IMG/VR virus record: IMGVR_UViG_3300023079_000003
From: a virus
Strand: one strand, 5' to 3'
DNA length: 64,000 bases
The translations under genes and the position numbers were made by a program. Each line of letters opens with the position of its first letter. The stretch's first letter is position 1. Shown here one piece after another: positions 2,047 through 62,073 of the stretch. The notes below the pieces were generated by a model. The model saw only the letters and a program-made list of their open reading frames with translations. It did not search any database and was not told where the DNA came from.

Positions 2047-2281
2047 GGTACAGGAGACCGCCCGGCAGCGCATCCGTGACTCTGCCCCCGCCGCCGACGT
2101 CGACCTGTTCCTCGACATGCTCGGGCTCACCCCCGCCAAGCCGGTCGACGCGTCGAAGTGCCCGCACTGCGGGCACAAGCTCAACCTCGACATGCGCCCC
2201 TGCCGGCGCGCCCACTGCCTCCGCGACCGGGGGATCACACCCACACGCGACAAGCAGCGGCCGCAGGAGGTCGACGCCTGA
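2030..2281 (+). CDS. Small Cys/His (Zn-finger-like) protein
   Basis: VDLFLDMLGL followed by CPHC...C...HC. Confidence 0.6.
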   Translation: MPRSLEVQETARQRIRDSAPAADVDLFLDMLGLTPAKPVDASKCPHCGHKLNLDMRPCRRAHCLRDRGITPTRDKQRPQEVDA

Positions 2282-13065: not shown

Positions 13066-13366
13066 CACCGACCTGGCCGACCGGCTGATGCGGAAGCTGT
13101 GGCACCGGCGCACCCAACTCGCCTACGAACTGAACGTGCAGTGCAACTACGCGTTCATCGGCCGGGAGATTGAGATGCTGCTCAGGGTCCACGCCCCCCG
13201 CCCGGCCGACCAGCCCCCGTGGGAGACCGGCAGGCTCCCTCCTCTGATGGGCATCGACCTCGTCCCGTCCGACAGCCTCCGCCACGACGAGTGGCAGCTC
13301 CGCGACCAGTCCGGCACGGTCCGGGCCTTCGGCACCCTCACCGACATCCGCGAGGAAACCTCATGA
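13058..13366 (+). CDS. Hypothetical protein
   Basis: Coupled ORF. Confidence 0.65.
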   Translation: MDSTDLADRLMRKLWHRRTQLAYELNVQCNYAFIGREIEMLLRVHAPRPADQPPWETGRLPPLMGIDLVPSDSLRHDEWQLRDQSGTVRAFGTLTDIREETS

Positions 13367-14325
13367 AATTCTTCAACCGGACACCCGAGCCCGACCCGGA
13401 CGACCAGGTGTCCGTGACCATCACCCCGCCCGACGCCGACGGCAAACGCCGCTTCACCCTCACACCCCCGCAGGAGACCCCCGTGCCCGACCAGCAGACC
13501 CCCGACGACGCCTTCGACGGTGGCAGCGCCCTCACCGAGGATCAGTACGCCGCCCGTAAGGCGTGGCAGATGGACCCAGCCGCCCTCGCGGACGAAACCC
13601 CCACAGCCCAGCAGGCCGCCGTGAACGACCCCACCGTCCAGCGGTTCGTCAACGCCCCCGGCGAGGTCCGCCGGCGCATCCGCGACCTGGAAGCAGCCGA
13701 CCTCGCCCCGTCCGAGCACGAGCACGAGCAAGGCCCGGCCATCACCGGCACCCAGCTCACCATCACCCCAGAGGACATCTGCCCCAACTGCGGGCAGCGG
13801 ATGCCCTCCGACGCCGCCCTCCTGCAGGCCGGTGTCGACCTCCTCACCGGCGCGCAGGTTACCGACCAGCTCACCGTCCGCTTCTACGAGATCGTGTTCG
13901 AGCTGGCCCCCGAAGCCCGCGCCCTCTTCGACGACCCCGACGCCGGGAAGTCCTGGCAAGAGCTGGTCGACGTCAACGCCCCGACCGACTCCTGGGGGCG
14001 CAACCAGAGGGACAAGATCGTCTCCTCGATCGCCCTCCTGGCCAAGCACTACGGCGACACCGAGGAAACCAGCGACGACCCCGACTTCCTCGACCGCGCC
14101 CTCGTCTCCATGGGCCGCGCCCACTCCCGGTTCAACCTCACGGTCGAGCACTACGGCATCGTCGGCACCGCCCTGCTCCGCGCACTGCAGGAGTTCGCCG
14201 GCGACGCCTGGACCCCCGCCATGGAGGCCGCCTGGACCCGCGCCTACAAGTACATGGCCGGGACGATGCTGCGCGGCGAGGCAACCCCGAACCGGGGGCA
14301 GACGGGACGCCGGCGGCGGGTATGA
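13363..14325 (+). CDS. Globin-domain protein (acidic N-terminal region, CxxC, then a 3/3 bacterial haemoglobin domain)
   Basis: RFYEIVFELAPEARALF (B10 Tyr, CD1 Phe), NQRDKI (E7 Gln), MGRAHSRFNLTVEHYGIVGTALL (F8 His), WTPAMEAAWTRAY. Confidence 0.9.
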   Translation: MKFFNRTPEPDPDDQVSVTITPPDADGKRRFTLTPPQETPVPDQQTPDDAFDGGSALTEDQYAARKAWQMDPAALADETPTAQQAAVNDPTVQRFVNAPGEVRRRIRDLEAADLAPSEHEHEQGPAITGTQLTITPEDICPNCGQRMPSDAALLQAGVDLLTGAQVTDQLTVRFYEIVFELAPEARALFDDPDAGKSWQELVDVNAPTDSWGRNQRDKIVSSIALLAKHYGDTEETSDDPDFLDRALVSMGRAHSRFNLTVEHYGIVGTALLRALQEFAGDAWTPAMEAAWTRAYKYMAGTMLRGEATPNRGQTGRRRRV

Positions 14326-18210: not shown

Positions 18211-18686
18211 CCGGCATCCAGATCGTGAACGTCACCCAAACGGCCAGCACCGGCATCCTTGAGGCGCACCTCGGATGGAAGGACGTCCACGGCGCCCCCG
18301 CCGTCGGAATCCCCATGCAGTCGAACGGGCAGCTCGGCGCCGACCTCCTCCACGTCCGCGCCGGCGAGCAGTTCCCCGTGCACACCCACCCCGGGGATCA
18401 CCTGCTCTACTGCGTAGGCGGCCAGGGCACGATCACCGTCGACCAGGTCGTCTACCAGATCCGCCCCGGCGACCTCTACATGGTCGACGGCGCCGTGCCC
18501 CACGCGGTCGGCGCGATCACCGACCACACCATCCTTGCCATCGGCTCCCCCCACAAGCCGGTCGATTCCCCGGAGCGGATGACCTGGTGCGACTGGGAGG
18601 GCAACCCGGTCGAGAAACCGGTCGGCGTCGCCGGCGGCGCGGTACTCCACGATTACGTGTCCCCCGTCCTCCGCCGCATCAAATGA
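18207..18686 (+). CDS. Cupin domain protein
   Basis: FPVHTHPGDHLLYCVGGQG...PGDLYMVDGAVPHAV. Confidence 0.85.
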   Translation: MTGIQIVNVTQTASTGILEAHLGWKDVHGAPAVGIPMQSNGQLGADLLHVRAGEQFPVHTHPGDHLLYCVGGQGTITVDQVVYQIRPGDLYMVDGAVPHAVGAITDHTILAIGSPHKPVDSPERMTWCDWEGNPVEKPVGVAGGAVLHDYVSPVLRRIK

Positions 18687-19837
18687 GCCTTGACCTCACC
18701 GGCCGCCGCTGGCCTGAGGCACCGCGCTCCTCCGAGCGCCTGGCCGTCGCCGAAGCCCTCCAATCCCAGGTGTGGACCGGCGGGCAGTTCACCGAGCTGG
18801 TCGAGCAGCAGATGACAGAGCTGACCGGCGCCCGACACTGCGTGACCTTCAACTCCTGCACCTCCGCACTCCACGCCGTCCTTGCCTCCGACCAGTACGC
18901 GTCGACGACCGGGCGCATCTACACCACCCCCCTGACGTTCGTCGGCACGGTCACCGGCGCCGGGCACCTCGGCTACGACATCGAGTACCGCGACGTCCAC
19001 CCGGACACCCTGAACCTGAACCTGCCACCGGCTAACCCCCTGCCGGTCTACAACGGCCGGATTCTCGCCGTCGACCTTCACGGGGTGCCCCATAGCATCG
19101 ACCGGGATCAGGTCATCACCGACGCGTGCCAGTCGCTCGGCACCACGATCGGCGGCAAGCACCTCGGCGCGCACGGTACGCACTGCTGGTCGTTCTCCTC
19201 GGCCAAGCTCATCGCCGCCCCCGACGGCGGGGCAGTCACCACGAACAATGCCGCCCTCGCCGCCCTGCTCCGCCGGCAACGCGACTACGGGGTACGGACC
19301 CAGACCGTCCCCGGCCGGTCGAACGGCATGATGATGCACCGCGCCGACGGGCACAACTGGCGGCCGTCCGAGCTGACCATGGCCCTCGTTGCCGCCCGAC
19401 TGGAGATCCTCCAATGGGACCGCGACTCCACGGACGGCAACCTCTCCGCCCGCGCGTACCGGGTCGGCACCCGCCTCCACGAGGCCATCGACCTGGCCGG
19501 ACTGTGGAGGCAGCAGACCCGGCCGAACACCCGGGTTGCCTGGCACAAAATCCGGATCGGCCCCCCGAACTGGCAGGAACACTCCGGTGTCCACGCCGCC
19601 AACGAGCTGGGTCACCGCCTCGAGGCCGCTGGTATCCCCGTCCACCGGTGGGGTGCCATCCCCCTTCACCGGCACCCCGCCTACTTCAAGCCGACCTCGT
19701 TCCCGGTCGCGGAAGCCGCCGCCCGGTCGACGTTCTGCCTCGGCACCGAGGACTGCCCCCCGCTCACCTGGACCCCCGAAGAGGTCGAACAGGTGTGCGA
19801 CACCATCATCAAGATCGGGAAGACGGTCAGCGTATGA
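18683..19837 (+). CDS. DegT/DnrJ/EryC1/StrS-family PLP aminotransferase
   Basis: FNSCTSALH, TPLTFVGT, DACQSLG, WSFSSAKLI (PLP lysine), DGGAVTTN. Confidence 0.9.
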   Translation: MSLDLTGRRWPEAPRSSERLAVAEALQSQVWTGGQFTELVEQQMTELTGARHCVTFNSCTSALHAVLASDQYASTTGRIYTTPLTFVGTVTGAGHLGYDIEYRDVHPDTLNLNLPPANPLPVYNGRILAVDLHGVPHSIDRDQVITDACQSLGTTIGGKHLGAHGTHCWSFSSAKLIAAPDGGAVTTNNAALAALLRRQRDYGVRTQTVPGRSNGMMMHRADGHNWRPSELTMALVAARLEILQWDRDSTDGNLSARAYRVGTRLHEAIDLAGLWRQQTRPNTRVAWHKIRIGPPNWQEHSGVHAANELGHRLEAAGIPVHRWGAIPLHRHPAYFKPTSFPVAEAAARSTFCLGTEDCPPLTWTPEEVEQVCDTIIKIGKTVSV

Positions 19838-20973
19838 ACCCGCAGGTCAAGGTCGGCATCATCGGCGTCGGGAACTGCGCGCGCGCCCTCCTCGAAGGCA
19901 CCGCCTACTACCGGGCGCGCGAGTCCGGCACCCAGTTCACCGGCCGCGAGCGCATTGCCGGGCTCATGCACACCATGGTCGGACCGTACGGTCCCGGCGC
20001 GATCGAGCCCGTAGCCGCCTGGGACGTCGACACCGAGAAGGTCGGGAAAGACCTGTGGACCGCGATCCGCTCCGGGCAGAACCTCGACGTCGGCATCCGC
20101 CTCGACCGAGGTGAGGAGCCGGTCGGCGCGGACGTTGAAGTCCAGCGAGCCCCCACCCTCGACGGCACCGGCGCACGCTACCTCGACAAGATCACCCTCG
20201 CGGAGGACTGGCCGAACATCGACGGCCGCGAGGTCGAGCAGCAGATCCGCGACTCCGGCGTGCAGGTGCTCCTGAACTACCTGCCCGTCGGCTCTCAGAC
20301 CGCCACCGAGTGGTGGGCCGAGCGCGCCCTCAACACCGGCTGCGCGTTCGTGAACAACATCCCGGTATTCATCGCCCGGAACCCGACCTGGCGGCAGCGG
20401 TTCCGCGACGCCGGCCTCGCCCTCGTCGGAGACGACATCAAGTCACAGCTCGGCGCCACCTACCTCCACCGCGCCCTCGTGAAGGCGTTCTCGGACCGGG
20501 GCATCACCCTCGACCGCACCTTCCAGCTCAACGTCGGCGGCAACATGGACTTCTACAACATGCTGGAGCGCAGCCGGTTGGTGACGAAGAAGGAGTCCAA
20601 GACCGGCGCCGTCACCGACGCCTACGCCGGCAAGCTCGCCCCCGACAACGTGCACATCGGCCCCTCCGACTACGTGCCGTGGCTGGGCGACACCAAGATC
20701 GCCATCGTCAAGTGCGAAGGCCGGGGGTTCGGCGGGGCGCCGATCGAGGTCGACATGACGATCAAGGTGCCCGACTCCCCGAACAGCGCCGGGGTGGTCA
20801 TCGACGCGGCCCGGCTCGCCCGGTACGCCACCGACCGCAACGACGTGCACGTTGACCGGTGGGTGTCAGCCTGGCTGTTCAAGGCGCCCCCGGCCGACGT
20901 CGCGCAGGAGTCCGACCTGCTGGCCATGCAGCGCCTCGACGACTGGCTGCACGGCGAGGCCGGACTTCGATAG
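19834..20973 (+). CDS. ino1: Inositol-3-phosphate synthase (myo-inositol-1-phosphate synthase)
   Basis: IIGVGNCA, NYLPVGS, GDDIKSQLGAT, QLNVGGNMDF, SKTGAV, DSPNSAG..ID. Confidence 0.95.
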   Translation: MNPQVKVGIIGVGNCARALLEGTAYYRARESGTQFTGRERIAGLMHTMVGPYGPGAIEPVAAWDVDTEKVGKDLWTAIRSGQNLDVGIRLDRGEEPVGADVEVQRAPTLDGTGARYLDKITLAEDWPNIDGREVEQQIRDSGVQVLLNYLPVGSQTATEWWAERALNTGCAFVNNIPVFIARNPTWRQRFRDAGLALVGDDIKSQLGATYLHRALVKAFSDRGITLDRTFQLNVGGNMDFYNMLERSRLVTKKESKTGAVTDAYAGKLAPDNVHIGPSDYVPWLGDTKIAIVKCEGRGFGGAPIEVDMTIKVPDSPNSAGVVIDAARLARYATDRNDVHVDRWVSAWLFKAPPADVAQESDLLAMQRLDDWLHGEAGLR

Positions 20974-21695
20974 TGCCGATCACCCCGTACCTGATCTCCC
21001 TCCCGCGCAGGCAGGACCGGCGGGACGAGTGGGCCACGGCCTGGGACGGGTACGGATTCAACCCACCCCGGGTGATCGACGGCGTTGACGGCTCAGCCCT
21101 CCCGGCGGACCGGGTCGACTCGCACATGAGGACGGCCCTCGCCGCCGGGCACAAGATCAAGCACCGGCGCCACTTCGCCGGCACCCTGGGCTGCCTCCTC
21201 GCCCACCGCGCTGCCTGGCAGACCTGGCTCATGGACAGATCCCCGGGCGGGTATCTCCTGCTCATGGAGGACGACGCCTCCCCCACCCCCGGGCTCACCC
21301 CCGCCCGGTGGCTGCTCGACCTGCAGCAAGCTGTCCGGCAGCTCCCGCCCGGCTGGCTGATGCTGAACCTCGGGGCCAAGGTCCGCAACCAGCCCCGTGA
21401 GGTGCCCGGCGCCCCGAGCCTGGCCTACTCCGGCCGCGACACCCAATGCCTCCACGCCATCCTCTACACGGTCGATGGGGTCATGGCCATGCTCAAGGCC
21501 ACCGCCGACCAGGAGCAGCCCCTCGACTTCGCGTGGCGTCCCGTCCTCGCCGGCGGCAACTGCTACTCGACCCGCCGGTGGCTGGCCATCCAGCGCTGGT
21601 CGTACTCGGACATCTCCCACTTCACCCGGTCGCCGCACCTCGATCACCGGCAGCGCATCGCCCGGTTCCACCAGCCGGAGGTGATCCACCGGTGA
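20973..21695 (+). CDS. Glycosyltransferase family 25-like
   Basis: YLISLPRRQDRR...IDGVDG...GCLLAHRAAW...LLMEDDA...HAILYT. Confidence 0.8.
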   Translation: MPITPYLISLPRRQDRRDEWATAWDGYGFNPPRVIDGVDGSALPADRVDSHMRTALAAGHKIKHRRHFAGTLGCLLAHRAAWQTWLMDRSPGGYLLLMEDDASPTPGLTPARWLLDLQQAVRQLPPGWLMLNLGAKVRNQPREVPGAPSLAYSGRDTQCLHAILYTVDGVMAMLKATADQEQPLDFAWRPVLAGGNCYSTRRWLAIQRWSYSDISHFTRSPHLDHRQRIARFHQPEVIHR

Positions 21696-22483
21696 CCGCC
21701 GACCTGGACGTCATCAACACCTGGACCAACCCCAACCCGGGGCTGCGCCGGCGCACCTACGAGCAGGTGCCGCGCCGGGGCGGCAGGTGGCGGCCGACCT
21801 GGACGGTCGACGGAGTCACGATCAACCGGCCCGGCTGGGACTACGACCGCAACCAGTTCACCGGCGTCCGGAACAACGGCACCGCCTGGACCGCCGACTT
21901 CACCCCCGGGCTGCTCTACACGATCGCCTCCCAGGTGCGCGGCTGGTGCTGGCCCCGCCAGGGCGGCACCCTGTACGAGCTGGCCCAAGCCTCGACCGGG
22001 CAGGTCGTCGAGATCGGCTCCTGCTTCGGCCTCTCCGCCGTGTGGACCGGCTGGGGCATCCGCACCTCGTCCGACCCCGACCGGCGCCTTCATTGCGTCG
22101 ACACCTGGCACAGCCTCGACGTCAGGGGTGACGGCTCCCCCGCCGGGAAGTCCTCCCAGCCGGAGTTCATCCAAAACATGACCTACACCGGCCTCGCCTA
22201 CCACACCTGCCTCCACCAGATGCTCTCCGAACAGGCCGCTGCGACCTGGGACGAGGGACCTGTCGGCATGATCTACATCGACGGCTGGCACACCTACGCC
22301 ATGGCAAAAGCCGACCACCTGTCCTGGCTCCCCCACCTCACCCCCGGCGCGGTAGTCGCCTTCGACGACTGCTCCCCCGCCTGGCCCGGGGTGCTCCGCT
22401 ACCAGCGCGAGCTGGCCGGGCGCGGAGACCACGAGCTGATCGGCCGGGCCGACTCGATGCTCACCTGGAGGTACCGGCCGTGA
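21692..22483 (+). CDS. Class I SAM-dependent methyltransferase (Methyltransf_24-like)
   Basis: VVEIGSCFGLS, HCVDTW, MIYIDGWHTY, LTPGAVVAFDD. Confidence 0.85.
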   Translation: MTADLDVINTWTNPNPGLRRRTYEQVPRRGGRWRPTWTVDGVTINRPGWDYDRNQFTGVRNNGTAWTADFTPGLLYTIASQVRGWCWPRQGGTLYELAQASTGQVVEIGSCFGLSAVWTGWGIRTSSDPDRRLHCVDTWHSLDVRGDGSPAGKSSQPEFIQNMTYTGLAYHTCLHQMLSEQAAATWDEGPVGMIYIDGWHTYAMAKADHLSWLPHLTPGAVVAFDDCSPAWPGVLRYQRELAGRGDHELIGRADSMLTWRYRP

Positions 22484-23310
22484 GAACCGCCCTGAAGGCC
22501 AAGAGCGCCTACCGCAACGAGGACGTCGCCCGGGTGTTCGCCACCATCCGCGACTTCATCAGCGAGGACGAGGCCAACGCCGCCGTCGACCAGGCAGTCC
22601 GCGAGGTCCACCAGACCGTCGGCCTCCGCAACCTCGACCGGGTCGCCTACGGCTGGTCCGGCGGCAAGGACTCCATCGCCCTGCAGGTCGTCATGGAAGC
22701 CGCCGGCGTACAACGGGCCATCCTCGGCACCATCCCCCACCTCGAGTTCAAGGCGTACCTCGACTGGGTCGAGGCGAACCAGCCGGACGGCCTCTACCAC
22801 CACATGAACATGGCACTCGACGTCGATTGGCTGGCCCGGCCCGGAAACGACCGGTACCTGTTCCCCAAGACCTCCCGGCTCGGCTACTTCTGGACCACCG
22901 CCGGCACCCGCGCCGCGCAGAAGGCATACCAGCGGCAGTACGACCCGCCGTTCCAGATTTACGGGCGCCGCTGGGCCGACGGCAACCAGATCGGACCGGA
23001 CGGGTTCTCCGTCTCCGCCGCCACCGGCATCCGCTCCTACAGCCCGCTGAGGGCCTGGTCCCACGAGACCGTCCTCGGCGTAATCCACTACTTCAACCGG
23101 CCTCTCCCTCCCGTGTACGGGTGGCCTCACGGGTGGACCGCCGGCACCGGCACCTGGTGCGGTCGCCGTGTCGGCACCGACGACGAGGCATGGGCCGAGA
23201 CCTGGACCATCGAGTCCGACCGGGTGCGCGAGGCAGCCGACGCCGGAGTGACCGGCGCCGCCGAGTGGATGCAGAGGAACGGCCATGGCCGGACAGAACA
23301 AAAGACCTGA
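22480..23310 (+). CDS. PP-loop / PAPS reductase-family protein
   Basis: YGWSGGKDS, YGRRWAD, SPLRAWSHETV..YF..PLPPVY. Confidence 0.85.
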   Translation: MRTALKAKSAYRNEDVARVFATIRDFISEDEANAAVDQAVREVHQTVGLRNLDRVAYGWSGGKDSIALQVVMEAAGVQRAILGTIPHLEFKAYLDWVEANQPDGLYHHMNMALDVDWLARPGNDRYLFPKTSRLGYFWTTAGTRAAQKAYQRQYDPPFQIYGRRWADGNQIGPDGFSVSAATGIRSYSPLRAWSHETVLGVIHYFNRPLPPVYGWPHGWTAGTGTWCGRRVGTDDEAWAETWTIESDRVREAADAGVTGAAEWMQRNGHGRTEQKT

Positions 23311-24658
23311 GACCTACACCCGGACCGGCCGGGGCGGCGCCGCGCACGTCCTCCCCCGAGTGCAGCTCGACACCGACGTCATGACCCTGGCCAAGGAGCG
23401 CATCGCCATCGCCGCCGAGATCCACGACAACATCCTCGTGGCGTTCTCCGGCGGCAAGGACTCCACCGTCACCCTGCAGCTCACCCTCGCCGTTCTCCAC
23501 GAGAACCCCGAGCTGGGTGCCAAGCACCTGCCGCTGCGGGTCGTGTTCGGGGACGAGGAGTGCATCCCGAAGGAGACCGAGGAGTACGTCCGCCGGGTGT
23601 CGCAGCGGCCGGACGTCCGCCTTGAGTGGTACTGCCTGCCGTTGAAGATGCGCAACGCCTGCTCCCGCAAGCACCCCGAGTGGTGGACGTGGGCGCCCGA
23701 GTCCGAGGAGCTGTGGGCCAGGCCCCTGCCCCCGGAGGCGATCACCCACCTCGACGGCTTCACGAACTGGCCACCCGAAGCCCGCCTGTCGTGGCCGCAG
23801 ACCAACGAACTCCTCGCACCCCCGCACCTCGGGAACGTGTGCATCCTGATGGGCATCCGCGCGCAGGAGTCCCTGACCCGGCTCCGCGCCGTGTCCATCG
23901 CCGGCAAGCGCGAATACAACTGGCTGGTCAAGCAGGGCGGTGGCAACGAAATCCTCAACGGCTCCTCAGGCGGGAACGTGTGGAAGGCGTACCCGATCTA
24001 CGACTGGCTGACCGAGGACGTGTGGACGGCCCCGAAGCGGTTCGGCTGGGACTACAACCACGCCTACGACCTGCTCGCCATGGCCGGGGTCAACCCCGCG
24101 AAGCAGCGATGCTCGCCGGCGTTCGGGGAGGAGCCGATCGGCGGCCTCCACGTCTTCGCCCAAGCCTTCCCTGAGGTGTGGGAGAAGATGGTCTACCGGG
24201 TGCCCGGTGTCGGCTCCGCCTACCGGTACGCCCTCACCGAGCTGTACGGGCACGGCTCCCGCCCGGAGCGCCCGGACGACATGACCTGGCACGACTTCAT
24301 CCTGCACTTCGTGGCCAAGCACCCGGACGGCATGAGGCAGAAGCTCGCCGCCCGGCTGACCGACATCATCCGCCGGCACTACCGGGTCACGTCGAACCCG
24401 ATGCTGGTCAAGGCCCCCCACCCCGACAGCGGCCTCTCCTGGGACTGGCTCCTCATGGTCGCCATGCGCGGGGACACCAAGCAGAGGAAGCAGCCGACGA
24501 ACCGGATCACCCGGGAGCCCGTCGAGTTGAAACGCATGTGGCACCGGTACGCGAAGGAGCTGGACGACACGATCAAGGCAGGCCAGTTCGATATCCTGTC
24601 CTATCCTCGTCACGCCCCCCGCGACCCCTACGCCCTGATCCCTGAGGAGTTCCGGTGA
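23285..24658 (+). CDS. IbrA/YbdN-like PAPS reductase-family protein (DUF3440-type)
   Basis: VAFSGGKDS, WYCLP..MRNACS..WW.W, MGIRAQES..R, YPIYDW.TEDVW, DYN.AYD. Confidence 0.85.
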   Translation: MAGQNKRPETYTRTGRGGAAHVLPRVQLDTDVMTLAKERIAIAAEIHDNILVAFSGGKDSTVTLQLTLAVLHENPELGAKHLPLRVVFGDEECIPKETEEYVRRVSQRPDVRLEWYCLPLKMRNACSRKHPEWWTWAPESEELWARPLPPEAITHLDGFTNWPPEARLSWPQTNELLAPPHLGNVCILMGIRAQESLTRLRAVSIAGKREYNWLVKQGGGNEILNGSSGGNVWKAYPIYDWLTEDVWTAPKRFGWDYNHAYDLLAMAGVNPAKQRCSPAFGEEPIGGLHVFAQAFPEVWEKMVYRVPGVGSAYRYALTELYGHGSRPERPDDMTWHDFILHFVAKHPDGMRQKLAARLTDIIRRHYRVTSNPMLVKAPHPDSGLSWDWLLMVAMRGDTKQRKQPTNRITREPVELKRMWHRYAKELDDTIKAGQFDILSYPRHAPRDPYALIPEEFR

Positions 24659-24960
24659 CCCTTACCGAAGACCCGTCCGACCCGCGACTCACCCACGGAC
24701 CCGACGACGGACCCGCCGCGCAGGCCCCGGTCTACCTGGTCCTGTCGGAGGAGGAGCGAGCCCAGGGTTTCATCCGCCCGGTCCGGCGAACCTACGTGCA
24801 CACGGTCTGTGGTGCGGTCACGACGATGGCCCCGGCGATCGCAGAGACGTACGCGCGCAACCCCGGCTTCTACGGGGCCACCTACTGCACCGGGTGCAGC
24901 CAGCACCTCCCCGTTGGCGAGTTCACCTGGGACGGCGACGGCAGCGTGGTCGGATCATGA
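24655..24960 (+). CDS. Small Zn-finger protein
   Basis: H.VCG..T.M...AETYARNP.FYGATYCTGC..H. Confidence 0.75.
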   Translation: MTLTEDPSDPRLTHGPDDGPAAQAPVYLVLSEEERAQGFIRPVRRTYVHTVCGAVTTMAPAIAETYARNPGFYGATYCTGCSQHLPVGEFTWDGDGSVVGS

Positions 24961-25574
24961 CCGATACCGATCGCCCCGTATCCACCCCTCACCGGGAAGT
25001 CATGACCGATTTTGGTCAGCTCGACCCGGGCGGGTCGGCCCTCTCCCTGGTCGCCCAGCCCGTCAGCAGCATCCAGTGGGTGCCGGCCTCGGCGCTGTCC
25101 GCGAACGACTGGAACCCCAACAAGCAGGCTCCGCCCGAGTTCAGACTGCTGAAGCAGTCCCTGCTCGAGGACGGCTGGACACAGCCGATCGTGGTCCGCG
25201 CCCACGACGACGGCGCCCGCCTGGAGATCGTCGACGGATTCCACCGGTGGACCCTCGCCTCCAAGGACAAGCAGGTCGGCGCGCTCACCACCGTCGACGG
25301 GCAGGTGCTCGTCCCCGTCGTCACCCTGCACGAGACCTCCGACCAGGAGGCCCGCGCCTCGACGATCCGCCACAACCGGGCGCGCGGCACCCACCTCGTG
25401 CTCCGCATGGCCGATATCGTGGCCGCCCTCGTGAAGGCCGGCATGACGACCGAGCAGGTGCAAAAGCAGCTCGGCATGGACGAGGAAGAGGTCGAGCGGC
25501 TCCTCGACCGGGGCAACATGCTCAACCGTGGATCCCGCACCGACGGCAGCTTCGGCACCGGCTGGACAGTCTGA
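24957..25574 (+). CDS. IbrB/YbdM-like ParB domain protein
   Basis: ANDWNPN..APPE..LL..SLLEDGWTQPIV, IVDGFHRW, ASTIRHNRARGTH. Confidence 0.85.
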   Translation: MTDTDRPVSTPHREVMTDFGQLDPGGSALSLVAQPVSSIQWVPASALSANDWNPNKQAPPEFRLLKQSLLEDGWTQPIVVRAHDDGARLEIVDGFHRWTLASKDKQVGALTTVDGQVLVPVVTLHETSDQEARASTIRHNRARGTHLVLRMADIVAALVKAGMTTEQVQKQLGMDEEEVERLLDRGNMLNRGSRTDGSFGTGWTV

Positions 25575-27019
25575 TGACGTACTCCACCAAGGGCCTCTAC
25601 ATCAACGGCGAGTGGGACCAGACCGGCTACGGCAAGGGGATCTACTCGCCCATTGACGGCCGCCTGATCGGCACCGCCTGGTTTGGGCAGATCACCCACC
25701 TCGCCGCCGCCTCCGCAGCCGCCCGCAACGCCCTCGACGGCGAATGGTCCCGGTGGACCGCAGAGGACCGGGCCGCCGCGCTGCGCCGGCTCGCAGACGG
25801 ATTCCACGACCGGCAGCAGGATCTCGGCGCGATGATCCTCGCGGAGGTCGGATCCCCGGTCGACTTCGCGTACGGGCCGCAGATCGACCACCCGCTCCGC
25901 ATCATCAACTACTACGCGTCCGTGGCCGAGAAGTACCGGTTCTCGGAGTCGCGGGTCAACGGGGGCGGGGACGCGCCGGGCACGATCGTCCGCAGGCTCC
26001 CGGTCGGCGCGGTCGGAATCATCACCCCGTGGAACATGCCCCTCAAAACGATCATGATGAAGATGGCGCCCGCGCTCGCCGCCGGGTGCACGGTCGTGAT
26101 CAAACCGGCCGAGGAAACCCCCTTCAACGCCATGGTGCTGGCCGAGCTGGTCGACGCCGCCGGATTCCCGCCCGGCGTGGTCAACGTCGTCCCGGCCGTA
26201 CGCGAGGACGCCGCCTACCTGCCGACCTCGACCTACCTCGACAAGATCGCCTTCACCGGGTCAACCGCCGTCGGCAAGTGGATCGCCCAGCAGTGCGGCG
26301 CCGGCATCCGCCGCTACTCCCTCGAACTGGGCGGCAAGTCCCCGACCGTGCTCCTCCCCGACGCCGACCTCGACGCCTGGGAGGCGTCCGTCCCCTCAGC
26401 CTCCCTGCTCAACAACGGGCAGATTTGCTCGAACCAGACACGCATCCTGTACCCCCGGAAGCTGCAGACCGAGGTCATCCGCCGGCTCGAACGGGTCCTC
26501 GACCGGCAGCGGGTCGGAGACCCCTCCCTCCCGGGCACCACGATGGGGCCGCTCATCACCACCGCCGCAGTCGACCGCTACCACGACGCCCTCAGGGGCG
26601 CTCAGCTCGCCGGCGGCACCGTACGGTACGCGGAGGACGCGGTTGACCCGCGACGCCCCTCAGGGGGCAACTGGGTCACCCCCGCCCTGGTCTCCGGCGT
26701 CGGCCGCGAAGCCCTCATCGCCCGCAAAGAGGTGTTCGGGCCGGTCCTCGTCGCCATGCCGTACGACAACGAGCCGCACGCGGTCGAGCTGGCCAACGAC
26801 TCGCCGTACGGTCTCCACGCCGGCGTCTGGTCCCACCGGAAGTCCGCCGCCCTGGCCGTGGCCAACCGGCTGCGGGTCGGGCAGATCCAGATCAACGGTG
26901 CGGACATGCCGCTGCACACCCCCCTGGGCGGGTTCAAGGAGTCCGGCTGGGGCCGCGAGCTGGGACCTGAGGGCATGACCGGCTACCTCGAAACCAGTGC
27001 GACGGTGGCCTCATGGTGA
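25574..27019 (+). CDS. NAD(P)+-dependent aldehyde dehydrogenase
   Basis: ITPWNMP, KPAEETP, FTGSTAVG, ELGGKSP, NGQICS, EVFGPV, GGFKESGWGRE. Confidence 0.95.
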   Translation: MTYSTKGLYINGEWDQTGYGKGIYSPIDGRLIGTAWFGQITHLAAASAAARNALDGEWSRWTAEDRAAALRRLADGFHDRQQDLGAMILAEVGSPVDFAYGPQIDHPLRIINYYASVAEKYRFSESRVNGGGDAPGTIVRRLPVGAVGIITPWNMPLKTIMMKMAPALAAGCTVVIKPAEETPFNAMVLAELVDAAGFPPGVVNVVPAVREDAAYLPTSTYLDKIAFTGSTAVGKWIAQQCGAGIRRYSLELGGKSPTVLLPDADLDAWEASVPSASLLNNGQICSNQTRILYPRKLQTEVIRRLERVLDRQRVGDPSLPGTTMGPLITTAAVDRYHDALRGAQLAGGTVRYAEDAVDPRRPSGGNWVTPALVSGVGREALIARKEVFGPVLVAMPYDNEPHAVELANDSPYGLHAGVWSHRKSAALAVANRLRVGQIQINGADMPLHTPLGGFKESGWGRELGPEGMTGYLETSATVASW

Positions 27020-43270: not shown

Positions 43271-43352
43271 TGGTGGGCCGGGGCGGGAGTTGAACCCGCA
43301 CTCACCCCTGACTGTGGGGTCCTCTGCCCGAGAGATGCCCAGCCCGCGACCC
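43271..43352 (-). tRNA. Atypical tRNA-like gene (anticodon-loop centre AGU, Thr-like); possibly degenerate
   Basis: GCGGG-TTCAACT-CCCGC T-arm; encoded 3' ACCA; ACCCC/GGGGT stem with 7-nt loop; 8-bp acceptor with a bulge; non-canonical D-arm. Confidence 0.6.
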
Positions 43353-43490
43353 ACCGGTGTTGCTCAGTGGGGGCTCCACGCCACTCAGGCAGATTCCTTG
43401 CGGACCCCGTGATCCTGGCGCGCTTCGCTGATCTTTATACGCCACACCTGTGACGTCTTAGGTGCACAACCCGCGATCACCCCCCGGGAT

Positions 43491-43506
43491 TGTGACTCAC
43501 CTCACG
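43491..43506. promoter_or_regulatory. CRP/GlxR-like operator
   Basis: TGTGA-N6-TCACG, one mismatch to TGTGA-N6-TCACA, in the 390-bp intergenic region. Confidence 0.3.
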
Positions 43507-43632: not shown

Positions 43633-44211
43633 ATGCCCGCAGCAGTTGTCCCCAAGAACGCACTCTCGCTCGGCGCCGGTTACCTGTACTGGGCGGCGAT
43701 CGGAGTATCCGAGCCCGGCTGGACCGTCACCGGCTCCGTCTTCACCGACGCGTGGACCGGCTGGTCCCTGCTCGGCATCACCCGAGAAGGCCACGAGCTG
43801 ACCTACGAGATCAACACCGACACCATCGAAGCGGCCGAGTACCTCGACCCGCTCATGTACGTCACCACCGGGCGTAACGGCGGCATGTCATTCGACATGA
43901 TGCAGGTCCACGCCCAGAACTTCCGCCGGGCCATCAACGCCGGCACCCCGTCGACCACCGGCTCGGGCACCACGCTGCGCACCACCGTCCGCCCACCGGC
44001 GGCTGGTGCTGAGCTGCGCTGCCAGCTCGGCTGGGAGTCTCAGGCCAACGACGAGCGCCTGATCGCCATGCAGTGCTTCCAGTCCGGCACGATCTCCGTC
44101 CAGCGCCGCAAGGGCGCCGACAACGCGTCCATCCCGGTCGAGTACCGGTTCGAGATCGACGCCAACGGCGACCCCTTCCGCTACGAGACCGCAGGGACGC
44201 TCCGTGGCTGA
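43633..44211 (+). CDS. Major tail (tube) protein
   Basis: LSLGAG.LY.A.IG...W..LG.T.EG....Y, DPL; position. Confidence 0.85.
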   Translation: MPAAVVPKNALSLGAGYLYWAAIGVSEPGWTVTGSVFTDAWTGWSLLGITREGHELTYEINTDTIEAAEYLDPLMYVTTGRNGGMSFDMMQVHAQNFRRAINAGTPSTTGSGTTLRTTVRPPAAGAELRCQLGWESQANDERLIAMQCFQSGTISVQRRKGADNASIPVEYRFEIDANGDPFRYETAGTLRG

Positions 44212-57008: not shown

Positions 57009-57601
57009 CCGACCCGCCCGGTTGGACGACGGCGACTCTCCACGCCCACATGGCGGAGATCATCCAACTGTTCCGGCAGCAGATCGACCGGCAGTGGGCG
57101 GATGAACGCCGGGCCGTTGACATTGCGCTCCGAGCCCACGACGAGGCGCTGAGGGTCGCCGCGCTCACCTCCGAGAAGGCGATCACCGCCGCCCTCGCCG
57201 CGCAGAAGGAAGCCGTCGGGATCGCCCAGGCTTTCGCGGACCAGCGGGCCGCGTCGATGAACGAGTGGCGCAAGTCCCTCGATGACGTCCTTACCAAGGC
57301 CATGCCCCGGCAGGAGGCGGAGGCCGCGATCCAGCGGGCCACCGAACGCATCCAGGAGTTGGTGCTGAACCAGCAGCACATGGTGTCCCGGCAGGAGTTG
57401 GACATGGCCCGGACCCGGGACGCCGAACGCATCACCGAGCAGAGCGCCAGGATCACGGAGCTGACCACGCGGCTGACCAAGGTCGAGTCCTTGGCCGCCG
57501 GCGCGGACAAGAACAGGGCGGCGATCTTCGCTGCGCTCGGCATCGCCACCAGCCTCATCGTCGCCGTGATCGTGGTGCTCAACTTCATCACCCGGGCGTA
57601 G
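57005..57601 (+). CDS. Coiled-coil protein with a C-terminal TM anchor
   Basis: Long helix, then AAIFAALGIATSLIVAVIVVLNFI. Confidence 0.7.
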   Translation: MTDPPGWTTATLHAHMAEIIQLFRQQIDRQWADERRAVDIALRAHDEALRVAALTSEKAITAALAAQKEAVGIAQAFADQRAASMNEWRKSLDDVLTKAMPRQEAEAAIQRATERIQELVLNQQHMVSRQELDMARTRDAERITEQSARITELTTRLTKVESLAAGADKNRAAIFAALGIATSLIVAVIVVLNFITRA

Positions 57602-60760: not shown

Positions 60761-61561
60761 TCAGGATAGAACGCGCCGTGCCATCTGCTCCGGGTAGCCG
60801 GACATCTGCGGGGTCTGCGGGTAGTCCTCCGCCGGCAGCGCCTTGCGGATCGCCGCGAACCAGGTGTTGTACGTGGCCCGGCCACTGAGCCCGGCCAGGG
60901 CGTCGATGGCCACGCGGGTGAACGCCCCGTTGGGCCGGCGGCCGAAGTACGCGTCGTACGAGAACTCGGCATCCCGGCATCCGGCGATCAGCAGCCCGGC
61001 ATTTCTCGACCGGCCGGTGGTCGGGGCCGCCTGGGCTGCCGCCGCCTGCCGCAGGTCCCTGCCGCCCAGGAACACCGACGGCGGGAGGAACCGTGCCCGG
61101 CGGTGGGTCTTCGTCCCCCGGGGGTTCAGCGGGGCCATCAGCCGGGCGACGGTGCCCGAGTGGCACGAGTCGGAGATGAACACCACCCCGGCGTCCGTGG
61201 GGCGGCCGGAGAGGAGGACGAACAGGTCGTCGTCGAGGATCGGCCCGGAGTTCATGATGTCGTGCGGGACCAGCGCCTCGTCCCGGCCGTCGACCTCGTC
61301 GCCGTTGGTGTCGGGCATCCACGTCCCGTGCCCGGAGTAGGTGATGACCACGGTGTCGCCGGCGGTGGCCCCGCCGAGCACCCGCTCGATCTCCGAGGTG
61401 ATGCCCTCGTAGGTGGCGCCGGAGTCGAACAGCCGGAACGTGATCGCCCCCCGGGCGGCGAGCTGGTCGGACCAGTCCTGGGCGTCATTCACGCAGCCGT
61501 GGAGGTCGGAGTCGGTGCCGGGGTAGTCGTTGATGCCGATGTGCAGTGAGCGGAGTGTCAC
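60761..61561 (-). CDS. Caspase-family (peptidase C14, metacaspase-like) protease
   Basis: LHIGINDY...LHGCVNDA, YSGHG, DEAL.P.D, ISDSCHSGT; His-Cys dyad intact. Confidence 0.92.
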   Translation of the reverse strand: MTLRSLHIGINDYPGTDSDLHGCVNDAQDWSDQLAARGAITFRLFDSGATYEGITSEIERVLGGATAGDTVVITYSGHGTWMPDTNGDEVDGRDEALVPHDIMNSGPILDDDLFVLLSGRPTDAGVVFISDSCHSGTVARLMAPLNPRGTKTHRRARFLPPSVFLGGRDLRQAAAAQAAPTTGRSRNAGLLIAGCRDAEFSYDAYFGRRPNGAFTRVAIDALAGLSGRATYNTWFAAIRKALPAEDYPQTPQMSGYPEQMARRVLS

Positions 61562-61572
61562 GGGTTTCCTTA

Positions 61573-62073
61573 CTAGTCGGGGCAGTTCCCGCAGTGCTGC
61601 GGGAGAACGCCGGGGCACACCGTGGCGATCTTGCCGGCGGTGGCGATGAGGGACGCGCCCGCGAGGAGGGCGGCGATGCCGAGCGCGGGAACGAGCAGGG
61701 CGTTGGCGACGGCACCGCCGGTGGCGTACCCGGCCACGGCGGACGCGCCGAACAGGATGCCGGCGGCGCCGACCCACCGGGTGGCGTGCCTGGCCCAGAC
61801 CGGCCAGTACGCCCACCCGCCGGGGATCTTCGTGGGGGACAGGACGACCAGCTCGATCGAGGCGACGTAACCGCGCGCGCCGCGCAGCTCCGTCCGCAGC
61901 GGGCCGCGCCGGAGCAGGGTGCCCGCCGCGACGTGCTCGGCCAGCCGGTTACGGACGAACGCCGGCGACCCGCTCACCTTGTCGAGGGTGATCTGCCGCA
62001 GGGTGCCGTCCCACAGCTCGACGTGCTTGCCGATCATGTCGTCCTGCACGCGGGCGAGTTCGAGGGTGCTCAT
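61573..62073 (-). CDS. Membrane protein (2 C-terminal TM plus a Cys-rich tail)
   Basis: AAAGGA RBS; CPGVLPQHCGNC. Confidence 0.7.
   Translation of the reverse strand: MSTLELARVQDDMIGKHVELWDGTLRQITLDKVSGSPAFVRNRLAEHVAAGTLLRRGPLRTELRGARGYVASIELVVLSPTKIPGGWAYWPVWARHATRWVGAAGILFGASAVAGYATGGAVANALLVPALGIAALLAGASLIATAGKIATVCPGVLPQHCGNCPD

What the first reader, a model, noticed from the sequence alone, without database searches (positions are those of the whole stretch)
43271..43352. Antisense, non-canonical tRNA-like gene inside the tail operon
Seen: on the minus strand between the tail terminator and tube genes, an 82-nt element with a perfect T-arm and encoded CCA. It has 13 nt between the T-loop and ACCA (8-bp acceptor with a bulged C plus a 5-bp T stem), an anticodon loop ACAGUCA lacking U33, and an odd D-arm. 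A TATAAA lies about 80 nt upstream on the same strand. Inference: it may be a decoy or replacement against host anticodon nucleases, a tRNA-like regulatory RNA, or an antisense brake on tail-gene transcription.
Basis: partly seen in the sequence, partly recalled or inferred. Interest (0 to 1): 0.62.

Follow-up and report, generated by a model that had tools for sequence, protein, structure and literature searches.

The report
Phage tRNA mimic behind structured leader
Between two tail genes, this actinobacterial phage carries a backwards-facing RNA cassette made of an uncatalogued folded RNA followed by a tRNA-shaped RNA that has lost the parts needed to read codons; related phages swap other tRNA-like pieces into the same slot, and what the cassette does is untested.

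Summary
The element is real (0 of 300 shuffles) but is 75 nt, not 82: 43271-43345(-). It has an unbulged 8-bp acceptor, perfect T-arm, G18G19 and encoded CCA. All 21 stem pairs are intact, while U8, A14, R15, Y32, U33 and R37 are lost. ARAGORN misses it; Rfam scores stay below cut-off. It is not an att remnant: no identical tRNA end in 301 Micromonosporaceae genomes.

It ends a leftward cassette: Crp-like site, -10 box, an 83-nt folded leader, then the mimic. The leader occurs in 7 of 14 related tail loci, with compensatory changes in 9 of 24 pairs, and matches nothing in Rfam. Behind it, relatives carry tRNA-Trp, odd Arg-type tRNAs, a YrlA-like permuted domain, or only a hairpin. So the leader is the constant part and the tRNA shape is exchangeable cargo.

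Best reading (55%): a maintained, non-decoding tRNA mimic cut off the leader by RNase P, acting as processing handle and possibly decoy for enzymes that read the elbow or CCA end. Rivals: decaying pseudogene (22%), odd decoder (8%), antisense brake (7%). Expression is unshown, and the only homologue of the element itself is a 99% twin.

The parts
43271..43345 (-). 75-nt tRNA-like RNA: acceptor 43338-43345 / 43275-43282 (8 bp, one G.U); D arm 43321-43335; position 26 at 43320; anticodon-type arm 43305-43319 (4 bp, 7-nt loop, AGU in the middle); variable loop 43300-43304; T arm 43283-43299; A73-CCA 43271-43274
   Evidence: the twin differs only at 43320 (A to C on the RNA strand), the unpaired position 26 in this reading
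43346..43428 (-). 83-nt structured leader RNA, diverged member of a motif found in 6 other phage loci; not in Rfam 15
   Evidence: alignment A3; 93.7% of cells paired, 9 of 24 pairs with double changes, 0/500 shuffles; the window copy folds alone into the consensus helices; Rfam negative
43434..43439 (-). candidate -10 box TATAAA
   Evidence: TA-n-n-n-T or TATAA hexamers at the matching position in L005, L051, L054, L060, L064; below the threshold of the sigma-70 scan
43491..43506 (.). Crp-like palindrome (TGTGA-N6-TCACG), centre about -71.5 from the inferred start
   Evidence: only site with at most 1 mismatch in 64 kb (0.34 expected); also in the L005 and L051 gaps, in none of 6 gaps without the leader; consensus from PMC10187061
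42804..43241 (+). tail terminator gene (left boundary)
   Evidence: phrog_123, E 8.4e-07
43633..44211 (+). tail tube gene (right boundary)
   Evidence: homologues carry PF25681 Phage_TTP_17; 59-64% identical to Micromonospora prophage tube proteins

Best explanation
The element is the exchangeable 3' cargo of a moron-like non-coding cassette. Shown in sequence: promoter-like signals, a covarying leader, and a cloverleaf with intact stems, elbow and CCA but no decoding features. Inferred: (1) host RNA polymerase, perhaps aided by a Crp-family factor, starts near 43427 and transcribes leftwards; (2) RNase P reads the acceptor/T-arm and RCCA and cuts at 43346/43345, freeing an approximately 82-nt leader RNA with a defined 3' end and a 75-nt tRNA mimic, which is trimmed to CCA; (3) the mimic is not used on the ribosome. 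Its job is to be tRNA-shaped at the top half: a processing and stabilising handle for the leader RNA and, possibly, a competitive substrate for host enzymes that act on the tRNA elbow or CCA end. What the leader RNA itself binds is not resolved.
For: T-arm invariants, G18G19 and CCA are kept 13/13; D-core and anticodon-loop invariants only 6/14 (my count; Fisher p 0.002, inflated because the T-arm is how it was found). The D and anticodon stems, not used to find it, are intact; random substitution at 20-43% leaves them intact in 10% to 0.7% of trials. G10-C25 is replaced by U.G; one pair is gained in the acceptor and one lost in the anticodon stem. The leader is in 7 of 14 loci of the tube clade, in two subclades, and the window copy carries its own compensatory changes (columns 11/84 and 15/80). 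In all four loci with tRNA-type cargo the cloverleaf starts right after the leader; in L060 a terminator-like hairpin follows instead (z -2.69). Cargo varies: tRNA-Trp (L005, L054), Arg-type 5-nt-D-loop forms (L054, L064), permuted YrlA-like domain (L005). G.U pairs in the leader favour the minus strand. RNase P cuts tRNA-like RNAs such as M. smegmatis YrlA (PMC4201824).
Against: The element has no homologue except a 99% twin, so its own stems show no covariation and its real ancestor is unknown. The window's leader is the most diverged of the GCCAGG type, and 2 SNPs against the twin fall in the cassette, one at a leader consensus base. The whole precursor's MFE (-86.1) is not the leader-plus-cloverleaf model (-76.2), because a 10-bp leader/D-arm helix competes. 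The leader alignment has 8 related rows, so the shuffle control overstates significance.
Confidence: 0.55

Rival explanations
1. A decaying tRNA pseudogene: a normal tRNA was once captured behind the leader, as tRNA-Trp is in relatives, and is now drifting.
For: Canonical tRNA-Trp fills the same slot in L005 and L054. The nearest sequences are ordinary tRNAs of actinobacterial tRNA arrays, Leu(CAA) and Thr(CGU), 80-84% over 44-49 nt. The three nearest tube relatives other than L005 lack the cassette.
Against: Six or more invariant unpaired bases changed with no broken pair among 21; paired gain and loss of whole base pairs; CCA retained.
Confidence: 0.22
2. A working but odd tRNA that reads ACU (anticodon AGU), correctly or as a mistranslator like tRNA-ProT, or replaces a host tRNA cut by an anticodon nuclease.
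For: 7-nt loop with AGU in the middle; tRNA-ProT has AGU and A33 and does translate (PMC10404621); the nearest Thr(CGU) shares the whole T arm.
Against: No C1:G72 (it is G1-C72); no synthetase among 110 ORFs scanned; G2-C71 instead of the C2-G71 that ThrRS uses (own knowledge); 13-bp acceptor branch, 4-bp anticodon stem, C8, U14, A32, C37.
Confidence: 0.08
3. An antisense brake: leftward transcription collides with, or anneals to, the late transcript and tunes tube expression; the RNA shape is secondary.
For: Leftward promoter signals recur in this gap; the plus-strand copy folds well (z -2.05).
Against: The unit overlaps no coding sequence; collision needs no covarying leader or CCA; no significant complement elsewhere in the window beyond 14-15-nt matches; 7 of 14 relatives lack the leader.
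Confidence: 0.07
4. A two-state switch: the D arm of the mimic pairs with the leader's conserved core, so each half holds the other unfolded until RNase P or a ligand separates them.
For: Perfect 10-bp helix 43384-43393 with 43323-43332, part of the precursor MFE; a shorter alternative helix is 80% paired in relatives.
Against: Only p about 0.05 against shuffles; not significant in any of six relatives.
Confidence: 0.06
5. An att remnant: the 3' half is a copy of a host tRNA end.
For: A host-type tRNA with CAU anticodon shares the last 12 nt and most of the acceptor (L089).
Against: No identical 3' half in 301 family genomes; an extra base and two T-loop differences against L089; a complete, pairing 5' half is present; no integrase among scanned ORFs or in G001; the site is mid-operon.
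Confidence: 0.02

Closest known systems
YrlA-type bacterial Y RNAs (Chen et al. 2014, PMC4201824; Rfam RF02553)
   Same: Non-coding RNA with a structured 5' module and a tRNA-like domain that keeps the T arm and D-loop GG; found in actinobacteria and their phages; one member is cut by RNase P and gets CCA. Relatives L005 and L041 carry YrlA-like permuted domains in this very slot (25 bits, cut-off 69).
   Different: The window's domain is not permuted; no GNCGAAN0-1G motif; no Ro60/TROVE gene found nearby; the leader does not match RF02553.
Irregular tRNAs and allo-tRNAs (Mukai et al. 2017, PMC5389517)
   Same: Lengthened acceptor stem, odd anticodons, polycistrons of irregular tRNAs, many inactive in translation and proposed to be regulatory or linked to toxin-antitoxin loci.
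   Different: Those have a 12-bp branch (8/4 or 9/3) and, for allo-tRNAs, a long variable arm; this is 8/5 with a 4-5-nt variable loop.
Bacterial tRNA-Sec (8/5 fold; RF01852)
   Same: 13-bp acceptor branch; best Rfam hit (24.6 bits).
   Different: No UCA at 34-36, no long variable arm, A73, score far below 47.
tRNA-ProT of the tRNA-ProX family (PMC10404621)
   Same: AGU anticodon, non-U at 33, actinobacterial setting.
   Different: No C1:G72, no proSx neighbour, 8-bp acceptor.
mascRNA/menRNA and phage P1 C4 RNA (own knowledge; RF01684 hit 16.9 bits, cut-off 42.5)
   Same: Works-like analogues: a tRNA-shaped element lets RNase P define the end of a neighbouring RNA.
   Different: No sequence homology; no antisense target found for the leader.

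Membership tests
canonical class I tRNA | T arm invariants, G18G19, CCA | tested here: met
canonical class I tRNA | 7/5 acceptor branch, U8, A14, Y32-U33, R37, 5-bp anticodon stem; ARAGORN or RF00005 score | tested here: not met
canonical class I tRNA | aminoacylation and decoding | not testable with these tools
   needs bench work
tRNA-Sec | 8/5 acceptor branch | tested here: met
tRNA-Sec | UCA anticodon, long variable arm, RF01852 at 47 bits | tested here: not met
   24.6 bits; AGU in loop centre; 4-5-nt variable loop
allo-tRNA | 12-bp branch (8/4 or 9/3) and long variable arm | tested here: not met
   definition; structure
YrlA Y RNA | permuted order T arm, closed acceptor, D arm | tested here: not met
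   met only by elements in L005 and L041
YrlA Y RNA | GNCGAAN0-1G near the 5' end | tested here: not met
   window leader has a one-base near miss that is not conserved in relatives
YrlA Y RNA | Ro60/TROVE gene within about 4 kb on the same strand | tested here: not met
   no TROVE in scanned window ORFs or 5 related viral records; flanks are tail genes
tmRNA and tmRNA-derived phage RNAs | G3.U70, tag reading frame, similarity or complementarity to host tmRNA | tested here: not met
   G3-C70; only T-arm matches in sense and nothing above shuffles in antisense against M. costi tmRNA
tRNA-ProX | C1:G72 and adjacent proSx | tested here: not met
attP/att remnant | identity to a host tRNA 3' end, integrase nearby | tested here: not met
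   true host unknown, family sampled only
RNase P-processed tRNA mimic (works-like) | cleavage at the acceptor 5' end | not testable with these tools
   substrate features present; cleavage not shown

The most novel reading that the evidence does not exclude
The leader is the founding member of an undescribed family of phage effector RNAs, switched on by a host Crp-type regulator and matured by interchangeable tRNA-shaped handles, and those handles (8/5 mimic, shrunken Arg forms, permuted domains) double as decoys for defence enzymes that attack the tRNA CCA end or elbow, such as toxSAS or MenT toxins.
Probability: 0.15. Interest if true: 0.78.

Novelty: new variant of a known kind. Interest (0 to 1): 0.5.

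Why it matters
Phage tRNAs are usually explained as codon supplements or nuclease-resistant replacements, which both need decoding. A cassette in which one conserved RNA is followed in turn by a normal tRNA, shrunken tRNAs, a permuted domain, a non-decoding 8/5 mimic or nothing points to a use of tRNA shape other than decoding, and offers a natural swap series to test it. It also adds a structured RNA motif missing from Rfam and shows a class of elements that tRNA finders skip.

Tried and rejected
Isolated-phage records gave no match to the gap or tube. Exact patterns for the leader found nothing real in IMG/VR or GTDB; the Arg-type pattern gave coding false hits. Covariance-model searches found no leader in 151 Micromonosporaceae genomes or in 9 other related viral records (one 19.5-bit chance-level hit). 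Caveat: model R1 had helix 3 set two columns off; I corrected it and in R2, so may be slightly less sensitive. Relaxed ARAGORN gave hundreds of noise hits and is uninformative. Rejected by eye or test: D-armless tRNA-Pro(CGG) reading (needs an A.G mismatch); tRNA-His with G-1 (no GUG); T-box (the GGUGGA loop is missing in L064); tmRNA tag frame (in frame in 2 of 6); tmRNA antisense; resemblance to TPP, SAM and c-di-AMP riboswitches (no Rfam hit). The decay simulation from M. costi Thr is only indicative, since that tRNA is not the ancestor.

Full report
Setting. The window is a 69% GC tailed-phage genome piece with terminase, portal, capsid, tape-measure and lysin genes. Contigs carrying its tube protein reach 68 kb. 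Tube homologues in named genomes are from Micromonospora, Verrucosispora and Actinoplanes prophages at about 60% identity, so an actinobacterial host is likely but not shown. No own assembly is held; the nearest record is a 99% twin, L002/G001.

Observation. The element lies on the minus strand in the 391-nt gap between tail terminator and tube. A T arm followed by 7-8 nt and NCCA occurs once in 64 kb and in none of 300 shuffles. The best 5' end is 43345: eight unbulged acceptor pairs, 75 nt in all. In standard numbering it has C8, A9, a 4-bp D stem opening with U10.G25, a 7-nt D loop with G18G19 and A21, A26, a 4-bp anticodon stem (5 bp if A26 pairs with U), the loop ACAGUCA, a 5-nt variable loop, a perfect T arm, A73 and CCA. 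The twin's single change in the element is at position 26, which fits an unpaired base. ARAGORN is negative and all Rfam hits are below cut-off.

Origin. Against 301 genomes of the family of Micromonospora costi, no tRNA end is identical. The best matches are ordinary tRNAs of tRNA arrays, Leu(CAA) and Thr(CGU), and a host-type CAU tRNA shares the acceptor. The parent cannot be assigned, and the att reading fails. Among viral contigs, 97 stretches have a similar T arm plus 8 nt plus ACCA; several fold as 8/5 tRNA-like RNAs, but only the twin is a homologue. So the 8/5 shape recurs in phages, while this sequence is lineage-specific.

The slot in relatives. I fetched loci around tube homologues. 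In the well-supported 14-locus clade that holds the window, five have a short empty gap (L003, L006, L007, L056, L092), two have other inserts (L066, L093), and seven share a minus-strand motif of 83-130 nt (window, L005, L047, L051, L054, L060, L064). On alignment A3, 93.7% of cells pair, 9 of 24 pairs show changes on both sides, and slid controls fall to 18-43%. The rows are few and related, so I treat this as good but not rigorous support. The window's copy folds alone into the consensus helices and closes at 43346, one base before the mimic. The motif matches no Rfam family and was not found in sampled bacterial genomes or other viral records. A Crp-like palindrome lies further up in the window, L005 and L051, at about -71.5, -80.5 and -62.5 under a fixed start assumption; it could instead serve the tube promoter or a phage regulator.

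Cargo. Directly behind the leader, L005 has tRNA-Trp(CCA) and then a permuted YrlA-like domain. L054 has tRNA-Trp and then a tRNA-like RNA with a 5-nt D loop and a long anticodon stem; L064 has a homologue of that form with ACG. L047, L051 and L060 have no tRNA, and L060 ends in a terminator-like hairpin. A more distant phage, L041, has a permuted domain in the slot without the leader; such domains can also be fused halves of tandem tRNAs, a false positive that Chen et al. warn of. None of the seven clade members without the leader has a tRNA there. The leader is spread over two tube subclades and missing from three of the window's four nearest rows, which fits a mobile or repeatedly lost insert.

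Mechanism. What is kept in the mimic is what RNase P and CCA-end enzymes read (acceptor/T-arm, elbow, RCCA; own knowledge). What is lost is what the ribosome and most synthetases read. All 21 pairs survive despite at least six changes at invariant unpaired sites; the eight pairs not used in finding it survive random change of 20-43% in only 10% to 0.7% of trials. I therefore favour a maintained non-decoding mimic that is co-transcribed with the leader and split from it by RNase P (55%). Transcription, cleavage and lack of charging are all inferred. A decoy role is open: toxSAS and MenT toxins act on the CCA end and inspect the acceptor stem (abstracts), which suits this anatomy better than anticodon nucleases do, but nothing here shows it. 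Decay remains the main rival (22%), since the element has no diverged homologue. Decoding cannot be excluded, because tRNA-ProT translates with AGU and A33, but its C1:G72 is absent here. A 10-bp leader/D-arm helix competes in the precursor and may be chance.

Comparison. It fails defining features of canonical tRNA, tRNA-Sec, allo-tRNA, tRNA-ProX, YrlA and tmRNA (see membership table). It works most like YrlA or mascRNA-type tRNA mimics. Earlier notes of this scan describe similar antisense RNA cassettes in tail blocks of other phages; they are unchecked leads. Their tmRNA-antisense idea, tested here against M. costi tmRNA, gave nothing above shuffles.

Verdict. Real feature, boundary corrected, context much richer than first read. 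New variant of a known kind (phage tRNA mimics), attached to an uncatalogued structured RNA. Interest 0.5, limited by the lack of expression data, homologues of the element and a target for the leader.

Noticed in passing
L047 about 2075-2165(-), L051 about 2105-2190(-), L054 about 2080-2130(-): A second conserved non-coding motif downstream in the cassette (core AGGCCGYAAGC within a helix); no Rfam hit; absent from the window.
   Followed up: partly
L093 2609-3000(-): A different ORF-free gap with a perfect TATAAT box and a long folded RNA; not matched by the leader model.
   Followed up: partly
L064 2016-2088(-), L054 2126-2203(-): Two homologous tRNA-like RNAs with 5-nt D loop, 6-7-bp anticodon stem and Arg anticodons (ACG, GCG); a compensatory T-stem change between them; secondary structure recalls tRNA-Pyl (own knowledge).
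   Followed up: partly
L005 2436-2523(-), L041 2340-2415(-): Permuted YrlA-like domains with no TROVE gene in the L041 record.
   Followed up: partly
L110, L148, L157, L174, L185, L199 and others: Unrelated viral contigs hold tRNA-like RNAs with an 8-bp acceptor, 5-bp T stem and odd middles, many missed by ARAGORN.
   Followed up: no
L073, L075, L084, L085 about 1460-1560: tRNA-Leu(CAA) genes of only 74-75 nt, without the long variable arm, in actinobacterial tRNA arrays.
   Followed up: no
L067: A 14-tRNA array about 50 kb from the tube homologue on the same M. costi contig, probably part of the prophage.
   Followed up: no
L047 1541-2020(-), L060 1595-2035(+): Small secreted-looking genes in the same slot that resemble peptidase-inhibitor I36 proteins by eye; one window ORF hits PF03995 (member not reported).
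   Followed up: no
window 13219-14325, 18275-26646, 60761-61816: Globin, DegT aminotransferase, inositol-phosphate synthase, methyltransferase, PAPS-reductase-like and caspase-domain genes; already noted by other readers of this window.
   Followed up: no
window 57444-57458: A 15-nt exact match to the leader (E 0.01) inside a coding region, on the plus strand; probably chance.
   Followed up: no
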